A stretch of 63,899 bases of DNA from a virus (taxonomy: Duplodnaviria > Heunggongvirae > Uroviricota > Caudoviricetes), in IMG/VR virus record IMGVR_UViG_643348545_000007, one strand, 5' to 3'. Positions 9,001-11,179 of the stretch are shown one piece after another. Position numbers: made by a program. Numbering within the stretch: position 1 is the stretch's first letter; every line of letters begins with the position of its first letter.

Positions 9001-11179
9001 GGAAGACATACACCAGTTTCTGGTTGCTTATGTCCAAACTCATTCGCGTACACAATGGCTGCTCGCTCCAGATTGCGTCTGTATTCTTTCTGTTGCCAGA
9101 TCACGTCCTGTGCCATGAACTTAATTGGCTTAGCGTCTTCTATGCGCTCAGGCGTTTCGTGAGTACCTTTAGCCTGAATCTGCGCTCTGCTTAGAGTAGG
9201 GCGGTGTAATACTTCTGAACTTATTGCTTCTTCGCGGGCCAGCACGCCGTTAGCTAATGCCTTTGCCTTTAAACGCTCACGACGATGAGAGCGTGAATTG
9301 CCTTTGAACTGAGTTCTGCGTGTCATATAGACCTCCTGATGAACTTTGGTGGTGTGGTAGGTGGGAGACCCATTTCGACCTGTTTCGGCCTACTTCAATT
9401 CGGCAATAGTCCCGCAGGCCCCGCCGCTTTACGTGCGACATATTCCCGTCCATGAACCCTTCACCACACCCCAAAGTTCACTTTGGTTATTGCGCTTTGT
9501 CAGCGCCGTAGATTCATATTTGAATCGTTGTATATTCACCGCCCTGGTGAGTAGTGCGTCCTGCTGATGTGTTTAGTATCACCGCCAGTGGTATTTATGT
9601 CAACACCGCCAGAGATAATTTATCACCGCAGATGGTTATCTGTATGTTTTTTATATGGATTTATTTTTTGCAGGGTTGAGTGGCTTGGGAGGTGATCGAG
9701 AGATCTGAATTGCGATGTTTAGTGAGTTGTATCTATTTATTTTTCAATAAATACATTTGGTTATGTGTCTTTAGGTGGGGGGGGGGTGAGGCAAAGAAAA
9801 CCCGGCGCTGAGGCCGGGTTTTTCTAGGCTACCAGAGACTCAATCCAAGAGTCTCTGGTATGGAATGGCAACACTCGTGCGGTATCATTAAATAGTAGTG
9901 ATAGTTGCTGTAGCTCAGGTGTTAACCCATCGCTGTCAACTATTACAAATCTATTGTTTATGTCAGGAACGACCTGACTTAAGTCAACAATCTTCCCAAC
10001 TGTTGAGTGGGCAGTATTCCATCCCTTACTGCTGGCAAGGCTTACCGTAAACCCGCGTTTTGGTGGTATTAGTCGAGACTCATTCCTTAGCGTTAACGGA
10101 ACAGTAATGTTATGCCCACTAATACCTTTCACTTTTTCCTTTAAGGCTAGTCGCTTCCCAAGCCCTGCTGATTTTAAGTAACTGATTACACATTTTTCGA
10201 ACTTATCGTCTTTGACCTCAGCATACCAATCAGCAGTTTGGGCGGATGCAAGAATCCCACCACGAATAACATTTGCAGTTACCTGTCCAACGGACGACTC
10301 ATCTGCCCACGCAGATATCTCTCCAGAGTCATTTAATGAAATTCCTTGCGAAGCGAGTGATGACCTGATCAGATCAATTTTCTTTTTAGTCAGGTGGATG
10401 CCGCGTGATTCAATATTCATCAATGTATCGCAGTAGTCTGTAACCCTATACTGACCACTCATCTCTTGAACGAATACACTTATCTGCTCACAATCATCGT
10501 AGTATGTGAATGGACTAATAACGCGCAGCAACGTGTCGCTCATTGGGTGGCATTCAAACCCGAGCTTAGATATGACTGTTGAACACGTTACATTTCCCAT
10601 GATAACTGACCTGATTTATCTTGATTAGGTAAAGGTGGGCTGCCTTCATATATGATATTAAGCGCCTCGCAAAAATAATTCCAGTAGCCAAAAAAATCAT
10701 CTGGCTTGATGTTCGTTTCAAGCTTAAGTGCAATTTCTTCCCCAGCTGATTCGAAGTACATGTGATAGTGAGGACCTCGAGCCACCTCAACAAAATCTGG
10801 ATGGTTCACTATAGATTTATTACGGTGTGGCTTGTTATCCGCAGGGTACGGATCAAGCGCGTAAATGCGCCTGTCATGAAGAAACATCACAAATGAAATC
10901 TTCACTATATCCACCCCTTCAACGATAGGAGGACGCCAGTGAAGCATAAATCTTATGCCTGTGATTGGGTTGCCAATTTCATCAAAAGCTTTGAGATCCA
11001 ATTTAAACCAGATTGGGGTTCGTCCCTCACTTCCGGTCCATGTAACTCCGCTAAAAGTTACTTTTTTCAAGCGAGTAATAGCTTGGTCAACCTCTTTCTG
11101 GGTAGGCTTAAAGTCGCCTTTTTTAGCCACTGATTCGTATCACCATGAAAGTTATTGTTAATACCTGTGCTTCTTGTCA

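What the first reader, a model, noticed from the sequence alone, without database searches (positions are those of the whole stretch)
9638..11176. Two unrecognised genes occupy the rexAB slot of a lambda-immunity prophage
The immunity region is lambda's almost base for base (OL1-3, cI, OR1-3, cro), but between cI and the immunity terminator, where lambda carries rexA and rexB, there are two different co-oriented genes (180 aa at 10588..11130 and 258 aa at 9824..10600) whose reading frames overlap by 13 nt. Neither resembles RexA or RexB as recalled, neither has a transmembrane segment (RexB is a membrane protein), and I recognise no catalytic motif in either. From position they should be co-transcribed with cI from pRM, so expressed in the lysogen and ended by the hairpin at 9791-9823. 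This is the slot where temperate phages keep lysogen-expressed exclusion or abortive-infection functions, so the pair is the best candidate here for an undescribed defence module.
Basis: partly seen in the sequence, partly recalled or inferred. Interest (0 to 1): 0.85.

Follow-up and report, generated by a model that had tools for sequence, protein, structure and literature searches.

The report
Repressor-linked two-gene candidate defence cassette
Where phage lambda keeps rexAB, this E. coli prophage carries a conserved gene pair (a small histidine-motif protein plus a DUF1828-DUF1829 nuclease-fold protein) that sits behind phage repressors in many proteobacteria and has twice been predicted by computer, but as far as I could find never shown, to be an anti-phage system.

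Summary
A 1,351-bp cassette (9826-11176) replaces lambda's rexA-rexB exactly between the cI stop codon and the Timm terminator, inside an almost perfect lambda immunity region. It holds two overlapping genes, A (180 aa) and B (258 aa). Both are under strong purifying selection and always occur together.

They are not wholly unrecognised. B has a DUF1828 domain with a secretion-chaperone-like fold, plus a divergent DUF1829 domain of the PD-(D/E)xK clan that lacks the canonical catalytic triad. A is a distant DUF6978 relative with a conserved R..D...GxHxH motif and no assignable fold.

Both weakly match PADLOC candidate PDC-M24, and relatives match it end to end. DefensePredictor lists the protein cluster represented by this window's own A protein, and the sister-clade B, as predicted novel defence genes, but that study did not clone them.

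The A-B pair follows at least 15 different CI-type repressors in enterobacterial phages. It also follows repressors in Pseudomonas, Burkholderia and Helicobacter prophages, and occurs once alone on a chromosome.

Best reading: a self-contained anti-phage module expressed in the lysogen from pRM. Its function and mechanism are untested. It is a good experimental candidate but not a surprise.

The parts
11901..11964 (.). OR3-OR2-OR1 operators with pRM/pR (lambda type)
   Evidence: OR3 and OR2 are identical to lambda and OR1 has 1 mismatch. The equivalent sites are annotated as pRM/pR in mEp234 and CL707.
11177..11890 (-). cI repressor (HTH_3 + Peptidase_S24), first gene of the operon
   Evidence: 235/237 aa identical to lambda cI. 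Pfam Peptidase_S24 E 7.9e-29 and HTH_3 E 2.6e-11.
11131..11176 (-). 46-nt cI-A spacer with no hairpin terminator; GGTGAT Shine-Dalgarno-like element before the GTG start
   Evidence: Read directly from the sequence. The terminator scan found no site on this strand.
10588..11130 (-). Gene A, 180 aa: distant DUF6978 / PDC-M24A relative with invariant W31, R88, D93, N104, H121, H123, near-invariant H102 and G119, and a conserved C-terminal SGQxS(LL/WEM) tail; fold unassigned
10226..10600 (-). Gene B, N-terminal DUF1828 domain (about aa 1-125), secretion-chaperone-like alpha/beta fold; invariant C6, C17, D55, G93-E94
9824..10213 (-). Gene B, C-terminal domain (about aa 130-258): divergent DUF1829 with a PD-(D/E)xK-clan fold (alpha-beta-beta-beta-alpha-beta core); invariant F134, G159xS161G162, W194, G202, D206, near-invariant H163, K203, R217; no canonical D...(D/E)xK
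10588..10600 (-). 13-nt overlap of A's stop with B's start (translational coupling)
   Evidence: In the other clades the overlap is 4 nt.
9787..9825 (-). Timm intrinsic terminator: GC-rich hairpin plus U-run, starting at B's stop codon
   Evidence: Fold energy -22.5 kcal/mol, z -3.66. Homologous to the annotated Timm site. A hairpin follows B in all clades.
9577..9637 (.). OL1-OL2-OL3 operators
   Evidence: All three are identical to lambda.
9826..11176 (-). The exchanged cassette as a whole (replaces lambda 35832-37226, rexB-rexA)
   Evidence: blastn block boundaries against lambda. GC content is 43.1% against 49.9% for the window.

Best explanation
A and B form a self-contained two-protein anti-phage module (exclusion or abortive infection) carried as prophage cargo. 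It is transcribed with cI from pRM (and pRE) and ends at Timm, so it is made continuously in the lysogen.

B is the sensor/regulator. Its secretion-chaperone-like DUF1828 domain binds a protein or peptide ligand. That ligand may be a component of the invading phage, and/or the conserved C-terminal tail of A. Its DUF1829 domain, which has the restriction-endonuclease fold, binds nucleic acid and may cut it.

A, with its R..D...GxHxH motif, is a partner enzyme. By analogy with HipAD/DS-6, where an upstream enzyme is paired with a DUF1829 protein, A may be the effector that B holds in check.

Infection by a heteroimmune or virulent phage would release the activity and block phage replication.

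Shown here: the anatomy, the operon-like layout, the fold-level domain assignments, conservation, co-inheritance, and the link to repressor loci. Inferred: transcription from pRM, A-B interaction, which protein is the effector, the trigger, and the defence phenotype itself.
For: 1. Slot: the cassette replaces rexAB exactly. The cI-N interval is a recognised cargo hotspot that holds RexAB, BstA, hicAB and other genes.
2. Layout: a 46-nt gap after cI with no terminator, overlapping A and B genes, and a terminator right after B in all 37 distinct downstream sequences.
3. Unit behaviour: A lies immediately upstream of B in 84 of 84 loci. Amino-acid identities of A and B co-vary with r = 0.98, and dN/dS is about 0.02-0.07.
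4. Mobility: the pair follows at least 15 different repressor clusters. 15 of 19 cluster representatives are HTH + Peptidase_S24. The same holds in P. aeruginosa, Azotobacter, Burkholderia and Helicobacter prophages.
5. Autonomy: one stand-alone chromosomal copy has no phage genes nearby.
6. Independent defence predictions. Both proteins hit the two PDC-M24 components. Relatives hit PDC-M24B end to end at E 1e-10 to 4.5e-13. PDC-M24 was nominated because copies are embedded in BREX, DISARM or type I RM loci. DefensePredictor gives the sister-clade pair log-odds of 4.9-6.3, and the cluster representative of the A protein is WP_001074607.1, this window's own protein.
7. Domains: a PD-(D/E)xK-clan fold is common in defence effectors. 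DUF1829 is present in the validated system DS-6/HipAD.
Against: I found no experiment on this pair or any homologue. It is absent from the tested-unit tables S6-S8 of PMC13092281.

Only 42 of the 94 high-scoring units cloned in that study defended, so a prediction alone is roughly a coin flip.

The window proteins hit the PDC-M24 models only weakly and partially (E 3.8e-4 and 5.4e-7). A is below the DUF6978 gathering score (23.6 against 29.6 bits).

B lacks the canonical D...(D/E)xK residues, and Foldseek gives no significant PDB match, so nuclease activity is doubtful.

A's structure model is poor and matches nothing.

Transcription in the lysogen was not examined.

The very tight link to repressor genes could instead point to a role in the lysis-lysogeny switch.
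Confidence: 0.55

Rival explanations
1. The pair is mainly a toxin-antitoxin-like addiction module that stabilises the (often defective) prophage, and is not an anti-phage system. One protein is toxic and the other neutralises it, so loss of the prophage kills or arrests the cell.
For: The layout is a compact two-gene overlapping operon. Another lambda-immunity phage, mEp234, carries the hicAB toxin-antitoxin pair in the same slot. The pair is retained intact in a prophage full of IS insertions here and in the defective Nissle prophage 3. The DUF1829 protein of DS-6/HipAD is proposed to act as an antitoxin-like partner. A stand-alone chromosomal copy exists.
Against: Neither protein hits a known toxin or antitoxin family in Pfam, NCBIfam or PADLOC. 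No DNA-binding antitoxin domain was found. Both proteins are large and equally conserved, unlike the typical pairing of a labile antitoxin with a stable toxin. Many toxin-antitoxin modules also defend against phages, so this reading overlaps with the main one rather than excluding it.
Confidence: 0.17
2. The pair modulates the prophage's own lysis-lysogeny switch, induction or excision, as RexA is reported to bias the lambda switch. B would use its nuclease-fold domain as a DNA-binding module near the immunity region, not as an immune effector.
For: The link to repressor genes is very strict: 83 of 84 viral or prophage loci have the pair in the repressor operon, and this holds at about 25% identity in Pseudomonas, Burkholderia and Helicobacter. 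The canonical nuclease residues are missing. The literature reports RexA, the occupant of the same slot, as a DNA-binding modulator of the switch (abstract of PMC11077077; PMC12894663).
Against: The cassette works behind at least 15 unrelated repressor and operator specificities, so any target would have to be generic. A stand-alone copy has no phage or repressor nearby. The distant relatives that define PDC-M24 sit inside RM, BREX or DISARM loci rather than next to repressors. BstA shows that strict linkage to a repressor is compatible with a defence role.
Confidence: 0.12
3. The pair is lysogenic-conversion cargo with a host-directed function unrelated to phages (stress tolerance, metabolism or virulence), or a selfish passenger with no benefit to the host.
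For: Function is untested. Roughly half of similarly high-scoring predicted units showed no defence in PMC13092281. The pair occurs in pathogens and in a probiotic alike: O104:H4, UPEC and Nissle 1917.
Against: There is no signal peptide or TM segment and no metabolic or virulence domain. Strong purifying selection argues against a functionless passenger. The nuclease-clan fold and the defence-locus embedding of relatives point to nucleic-acid conflict.
Confidence: 0.12

Closest known systems
PDC-M24 (PADLOC-DB v2 multi-gene 'phage defence candidate', cassette CAS_00098; Payne et al. 2024, bioRxiv 10.1101/2024.01.29.577857)
   Same: It is a two-gene cassette with a small DUF6978-type protein followed by a DUF1828(-DUF1829) protein of about 255 aa. 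Both window proteins hit the matching A and B models. Homologues from Burkholderia and Helicobacter phages hit PDC-M24B end to end and are homologous to the window pair by hhalign.
   Different: The window proteins match only weakly and partially, and A is below the Pfam DUF6978 threshold. PDC-M24 was defined from copies embedded in BREX, DISARM or type I RM loci, whereas this clade sits behind prophage repressors. PDC-M24 itself has no experimental validation and no known mechanism.
Lambda RexAB
   Same: Same slot (cI to Timm), same presumed promoter and terminator, two genes, and lysogen-expressed accessory cargo.
   Different: There is no sequence similarity. There is no membrane protein, whereas RexB has a strongly hydrophobic profile (max 19-residue KD mean 2.39, 51 windows above 1.6). 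The domain content is different.
BstA (Salmonella prophage BTP1; PMC8585504)
   Same: It is an abortive-infection gene whose position downstream of, and presumably sharing a promoter with, the prophage repressor is strikingly conserved across diverse Gram-negative bacteria.
   Different: BstA is a single protein. Neither A nor B matched any PADLOC family other than PDC-M24 at E up to 1. No self-immunity (aba-like) element has been identified here.
DS-6 / HipAD (DefensePredictor, PMC13092281; Brenes & Laub 2025)
   Same: It is a validated two-gene system in which an upstream enzyme is paired with a downstream protein that has a variable N-terminal domain followed by DUF1829. The gene order is the same as A then B.
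   Different: Its enzyme is a HipA-family kinase, and A has no kinase domain. Its partner's N-terminal domain is DUF3037, not DUF1828.
PD-(D/E)xK nucleases (Can2/Card1 nuclease domain; NgoMIV, PspGI and Cfr10I type II restriction enzymes)
   Different: The similarity is at fold level only (7-17% identity in the top rows; Foldseek not significant). The conserved residues are GxSG(H), GKxxD and R, not D...(D/E)xK. There is no CARF domain and no methyltransferase partner.
Type III secretion chaperones and DUF2170/YbjN-like small alpha/beta proteins
   Different: There is no secretion system in the neighbourhood. The domain is fused to a nuclease-fold domain and has its own invariant C6, C17, D55 and GE residues. 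Peptide binding is inferred from the fold only.

Membership tests
RexAB exclusion system | RexA homologue | tested here: not met
   blastp and profile searches of A and B against lambda RexA give bit scores of 16.5 or less. PADLOC returned no family other than PDC-M24.
RexAB exclusion system | RexB polytopic membrane protein | tested here: not met
   Maximum 19-residue hydropathy is 1.22 for A and 0.79 for B, with no window above 1.6. RexB reaches 2.39 with 51 such windows.
RexAB exclusion system | Located between cI and Timm and co-oriented with cI | tested here: met
   Homology block boundaries against lambda.
PDC-M24 (PADLOC candidate) | B component matches a PDC-M24B model | tested here: inconclusive
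   Window B: E 5.4e-7, residues 5-169 only. Relatives gp47 and the Helicobacter protein match at E 1.1e-10 and 4.5e-13 nearly full length, and are homologous to the B family at hhalign probability 98.9%.
PDC-M24 (PADLOC candidate) | A component matches a PDC-M24A model | tested here: inconclusive
   Window A: E 3.8e-4, residues 98-160 only. 4 of 18 family members match, best E 4.1e-6.
PDC-M24 (PADLOC candidate) | Adjacent, co-oriented A then B genes | tested here: met
   84 of 84 loci, with a 4- or 13-nt overlap.
Pfam DUF1828 | Score above the gathering threshold | tested here: met
   40.9 bits against a cut-off of 22.
Pfam DUF1829 / clan PDDEXK (CL0236) | Sequence or profile match to DUF1829 | tested here: inconclusive
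   Window B has no direct hmmscan hit at E up to 1. Homology is transitive: gp47 and the Helicobacter homologue hit DUF1829 above threshold and align full length with the B family. HHpred of the 51%-identical sister protein gives 98.8%.
PD-(D/E)xK nuclease superfamily | Alpha-beta-beta-beta-alpha-beta core fold | tested here: met
PD-(D/E)xK nuclease superfamily | Catalytic D...(D/E)xK motif on strands beta2 and beta3 | tested here: not met
   The family-wide invariants are GxSG(H) before beta2, GKxxD in the following helix, and R on beta4. There is no conserved acidic or lysine residue on beta3.
PD-(D/E)xK nuclease superfamily | Metal-dependent nuclease activity | not testable with these tools
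   Needs purified protein.
Pfam DUF6978 | Score above the gathering threshold | tested here: not met
   23.6 bits against a cut-off of 29.6, C-terminal part only. 7 of 18 family members hit at E up to 0.01, best 2e-6.
Type II toxin-antitoxin module | Known toxin or antitoxin domain, or a DNA-binding antitoxin | tested here: not met
   No such family was found in Pfam, NCBIfam or PADLOC.
Type II toxin-antitoxin module | One protein is toxic and is neutralised by the other | not testable with these tools
   Needs expression experiments.
DS-6 / HipAD | HipA-family kinase partner | tested here: not met
   A has no kinase domain.
Anti-phage defence system (functional class) | Reduces phage plaquing or burst when expressed | not testable with these tools
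   Only predictions exist: PDC-M24 and DefensePredictor log-odds 4.9-6.3 for the sister clade. The pair is not among the cloned units.

The most novel reading that the evidence does not exclude
The pair is the founding member, awaiting experiment, of a widespread repressor-coupled immune module of temperate phages across Gamma-, Beta- and Epsilonproteobacteria, and it works in a new way. A secretion-chaperone-like DUF1828 domain recognises a phage protein. It controls, through a catalytically remodelled nuclease-fold DUF1829 domain, a previously unknown GxHxH metal-dependent effector enzyme (protein A). The conserved C-terminal tail of A would be the tether held by the chaperone-like domain.
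Probability: 0.25. Interest if true: 0.75.

Novelty: new member of a known kind. Interest (0 to 1): 0.5.

Why it matters
If the pair defends, it adds a third well-defined occupant (after RexAB and BstA) to the most highly expressed cargo slot of lambdoid prophages. It would also give the first function to three domains of unknown function (DUF1828, this branch of DUF1829, and DUF6978).

It would validate PADLOC candidate PDC-M24 and one DefensePredictor cluster at the same time.

One or other of the two E. coli clades is present in about 5.5% of complete E. coli genomes. Carriers include the O104:H4 outbreak lineage, the type strain and the probiotic Nissle 1917, whose full resistance to lambdoid phages is not explained. 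The pair could therefore affect phage therapy, Stx-phage spread and probiotic safety.

The non-canonical nuclease-fold pocket and the small histidine-motif partner could reveal new effector chemistry or a new way of sensing phage proteins.

Tried and rejected
- **PDB sequence searches:** profiles A1, A2, A3 and A5 gave nothing real. The only 'hits' were a repeat-protein design and His-tags.
- **NCBIfam:** no hit for either protein.
- **Motifs considered for A by eye and rejected:** HNH/His-Me, HEPN Rx4-6H, cupin, HIT and LAS HxH motifs. The supporting residues (H110, E127) are not conserved in distant members, and the predicted secondary structure does not fit.
- **Internal promoter (pLit-like) inside the cassette:** promoter-like sites are no more frequent than in shuffled sequence, 5 found against 5.8 expected.
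- **Literature:** no paper mentions the exact proteins, PDC-M24 by name, or the PHROG ids. Brenes & Laub 2025 (Cell Host Microbe 33:1004), the prophage defence screen most likely to have tested such a cassette, could not be read.
- **Bury et al. 2018 on Nissle prophage 3:** they cloned only a 410-bp 'pr' fragment, and one cloning primer contains a 19-nt sequence that, in this window, lies just beyond cro. The pair was not tested.
- **My initial recollection that PDC-M candidates came from Millman et al. 2022 was wrong.** They come from Payne et al. 2024, and M stands for multi-gene.
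Full report
**1.

The ORF list and sequence show three co-oriented genes on the minus strand:
- a 237-aa cI at 11177..11890;
- gene A, 180 aa, GTG start, at 10588..11130;
- gene B, 258 aa, at 9824..10600.

A's last 13 nt overlap B's start.

Compared with lambda NC_001416, OL1-3, OR3 and OR2 are identical and OR1 differs at one base. 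cI is 235/237 aa identical and Cro 64/66.

Nucleotide homology to lambda runs from 12205 down to 11177, which is exactly the cI stop codon. It resumes at 9825, the base after B's stop, and continues through Timm and OL. A 1,351-bp cassette (9826-11176) therefore replaces lambda's 1,395-bp rexB-rexA.

The hairpin at B's stop folds at -22.5 kcal/mol (z = -3.66). It is homologous to the site annotated as Timm in the immunity-region records of mEp234, HK106, HK542 and CL707.

Neither protein resembles RexA or RexB, and neither has a membrane segment.

**2. Both are real genes inherited as one unit.**

In 84 loci from deposited phages, IMG/VR contigs and an E. coli chromosome, an A homologue lies immediately upstream of every B homologue, overlapping it by 4 or 13 nt. 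One locus (L048) carries a disrupted copy.

Against the ~90%-identical clade, dN/dS is about 0.04-0.07 for A and about 0.02 for B. dS is near or at saturation there, so these values are rough. The amino-acid identities of A and B to the reference co-vary with r = 0.98.

The exact cassette is in 61 of 5,426 complete E. coli genomes, including the O104:H4 outbreak lineage. A sister clade (A 40% identical, B 51%) is in 241 more, including Nissle 1917 and the type strain.

**3. What the proteins are.**

*Protein B.* B scores above threshold for Pfam DUF1828. Its AlphaFold2 model is usable (pLDDT 82) and has two domains.

Foldseek gives nothing significant, so this is fold-level evidence only.

Sequence evidence supports it independently. 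Homologues in Burkholderia phage phi644-2 (gp47) and a Helicobacter prophage hit Pfam DUF1829 above threshold. They align full length with the B family by hhalign (probability 98.9%, E 1.5e-17). The HHpred annotation published for the 51%-identical sister protein gives DUF1828 99.5% and DUF1829 98.8%, with DUF1829 in clan CL0236 PDDEXK.

Across 31 sequences down to 22% identity, these residues are conserved:
- invariant in the first domain: C6, C17, D55 and G93-E94;
- invariant in the second domain: F134, G159-x-S161-G162, W194, G202 and D206;
- nearly invariant in the second domain: H163, K203 and R217.

This is a strongly conserved pocket, but it is not the canonical D...(D/E)xK triad.

*Protein A.* A belongs to a very small family: 22 representatives at 50% clustering among 1.8 billion proteins. 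It is distantly related to DUF6978, scoring below threshold itself, with 7 of 18 relatives hitting.
- Invariant residues are W31, R88, D93, N104, H121, H123, F153 and P168; H102 and G119 are nearly invariant.
- The gammaproteobacterial members share a C-terminal SGQxSLL/SWEM tail.
- The small partners in the Burkholderia and Helicobacter phages are homologous (hhalign 96.0% and 96.7%) and keep the GxHEH motif.
- A's structure model is poor and matches nothing, so I assign no fold.

**4. Context.**

The gene upstream of A falls into 19 clusters at 70% identity. Of the 19 representatives, 15 are HTH + Peptidase_S24 repressors. The others are short HTH/CI-type repressors, or an extra cargo gene (DUF3024, or a SHOCT-like protein) with the repressor just beyond it.

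The same order, repressor then small protein then a ~251-aa DUF1828 protein, is found in:
- P. aeruginosa prophages and a D3-like phage, where the A gene is unannotated;
- an Azotobacter prophage, at the end of a longer cargo operon;
- Burkholderia phi644-2 and a Helicobacter prophage.

A GC-rich hairpin with a T-run follows B in all 37 distinct downstream sequences.

One metagenomic lineage carries the pair alone, beside recB/recD-like genes and with no phage genes nearby. The module therefore does not depend on a repressor.

The cI-to-N interval is a documented mosaic hotspot. It holds rexAB in lambda, hicAB plus an ORF in mEp234, a 301-aa ORF in CL707, and BstA in BTP1.

**5. What is already known about the family.**

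*PADLOC.* Both window proteins hit the two components of candidate PDC-M24 (E 3.8e-4 and 5.4e-7). The Burkholderia and Helicobacter B homologues hit PDC-M24B nearly end to end (E 1.1e-10 and 4.5e-13).

PDC-M24 is cassette CAS_00098 (two families, count 153 in the supplementary table) in Payne et al. 2024. It was nominated because copies are embedded in BREX, DISARM or type I RM loci, and it has not been tested.

*DefensePredictor.* This study (Science 2026, PMC13092281) lists the sister-clade pair, WP_001062368.1 and WP_000968518.1/..517.1, as 'Predicted novel defense gene'. Log-odds are 4.9-6.3 against a stringent cut-off of 4.

The cluster representative for the A protein is WP_001074607.1, which is this window's own protein A.

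The pair does not appear in the uncut tables of the 118 cloned units (S6-S8).

That paper does implicate DUF1829 in defence, but through DS-6B/HipAD (DUF3037 + DUF1829), the partner of a HipA-like kinase.

I found no experiment on this pair. I could not read Brenes & Laub 2025, the screen most likely to contain one.

**6. Most likely function.**

I commit, at about 0.55, to a self-contained anti-phage module expressed in the lysogen from pRM/pRE and ended at Timm.
- B is the sensor/regulator: a chaperone-like ligand-binding domain plus a nuclease-fold nucleic-acid-binding domain.
- A is the partner enzyme. By the HipAD analogy (upstream enzyme, downstream DUF1829 protein), A is perhaps the effector.

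Shown: the anatomy, conservation, co-inheritance, the repressor-linked mobility and the fold-level domain identities. Inferred: transcription, A-B interaction, the trigger, which protein is the effector, and the phenotype.

Rivals are a toxin-antitoxin-like prophage addiction module (0.17), a modulator of the prophage's own switch or excision (0.12), and other or no host benefit (0.12). The stand-alone copy and the RM/BREX embedding of relatives weigh against the switch-modulator idea. The absence of the canonical triad weighs against a simple nuclease effector.

**7. Novelty and score.**

The general idea, defence cargo in the rex slot, is established. The family has been flagged by two computational screens. 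I therefore file this as a new member of a known, though unvalidated, kind.

New here are:
- the exact modular replacement of rexAB;
- the conserved operon placement behind many repressor types across three proteobacterial classes;
- the assignment of B's C-terminal domain to a non-canonical DUF1829/PD-(D/E)xK fold;
- the conserved motif set of A.

It is a well-defined, common and easily tested candidate, but not a surprise to specialists. Interest 0.5.

Noticed in passing
window 9777-9786: A G10 homopolymer (C10 on the transcribed strand) lies just beyond the Timm hairpin. Its length varies from 6 to 10 among otherwise near-identical loci (L001, L006, L007, L008). This could be slipped-strand variation or assembly noise.
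   Followed up: partly
window 8943-9326 (-): A 127-aa ORF has an arginine-rich N-terminus (MTRRTQFKGNSRSHRRERLKAKA...), typical of N-type antiterminators. RefSeq annotates only its last 69 bp as a truncated 'regulator' pseudogene, so the N gene may in fact be intact.
   Followed up: no
window ~7057-7754, ~16215-18466, ~18765-19978, ~61476-62689: The prophage, integrated at ynfG, carries IS1, IS21/ISEc10 and two IS3 copies, so it is probably defective. The immunity region and the A-B cassette are nevertheless intact.
   Followed up: partly
window ~20693-21221: A RelE/ParE-family toxin gene with an adjacent HTH gene sits inside the prophage early-right region, next to IS elements.
   Followed up: no
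window ~12641-12859 and inside ORF 12880-13968: A repeated DNA/peptide motif (HQPQQPEADWVNP) occurs twice upstream of, and again within, the 362-aa replication-region ORF, which also has an (EQ)n tract. These may be origin iterons.
   Followed up: no
window ~53929-61395: A 7.4-kb LPD5-domain pseudogene lies at the far end of the prophage. Its neighbours include a bacteriocin gene, Hok/Gef, a Lom-family gene and a YadA-like gene.
   Followed up: no
L106 4001-5307 (E. coli Nissle 1917, prophage 3 next to icd): The sister-clade pair sits directly behind the repressor of Nissle's defective prophage 3. Bury et al. 2018 linked this prophage to lambdoid-phage resistance, cloned only a 410-bp 'pr' fragment, and left the other prophage genes untested.
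   Followed up: partly
L004 2920-3504 (Pseudomonas phage VB_PaD_phPA-G): An A-family gene (194-aa ORF, profile E 3.9e-26) is unannotated in the deposited record. It overlaps the annotated DUF1828 gene by 4 nt.
   Followed up: yes
L051-L055 (for example L052 3052-3393); L101 1694-4385: Some phages carry extra cargo between the repressor and the pair. Five enterobacterial contigs have a DUF3024 gene. An Azotobacter prophage has DUF6932, two unknown genes and an Endonuclease_1 gene. The repressor operon can therefore accumulate several cargo genes.
   Followed up: partly
L103-L105 4495-5765: A stand-alone A-B pair (169 + 254 aa) lies in a non-phage chromosomal context beside UvrD/PDDEXK_1 and RecD-like genes, in three metagenome contigs.
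   Followed up: partly
L048 2588-3896: One IMG/VR locus carries a disrupted copy of the cassette: A is split into two ORFs and B is N-terminally shortened. It is the only decayed copy among the 84 loci.
   Followed up: no
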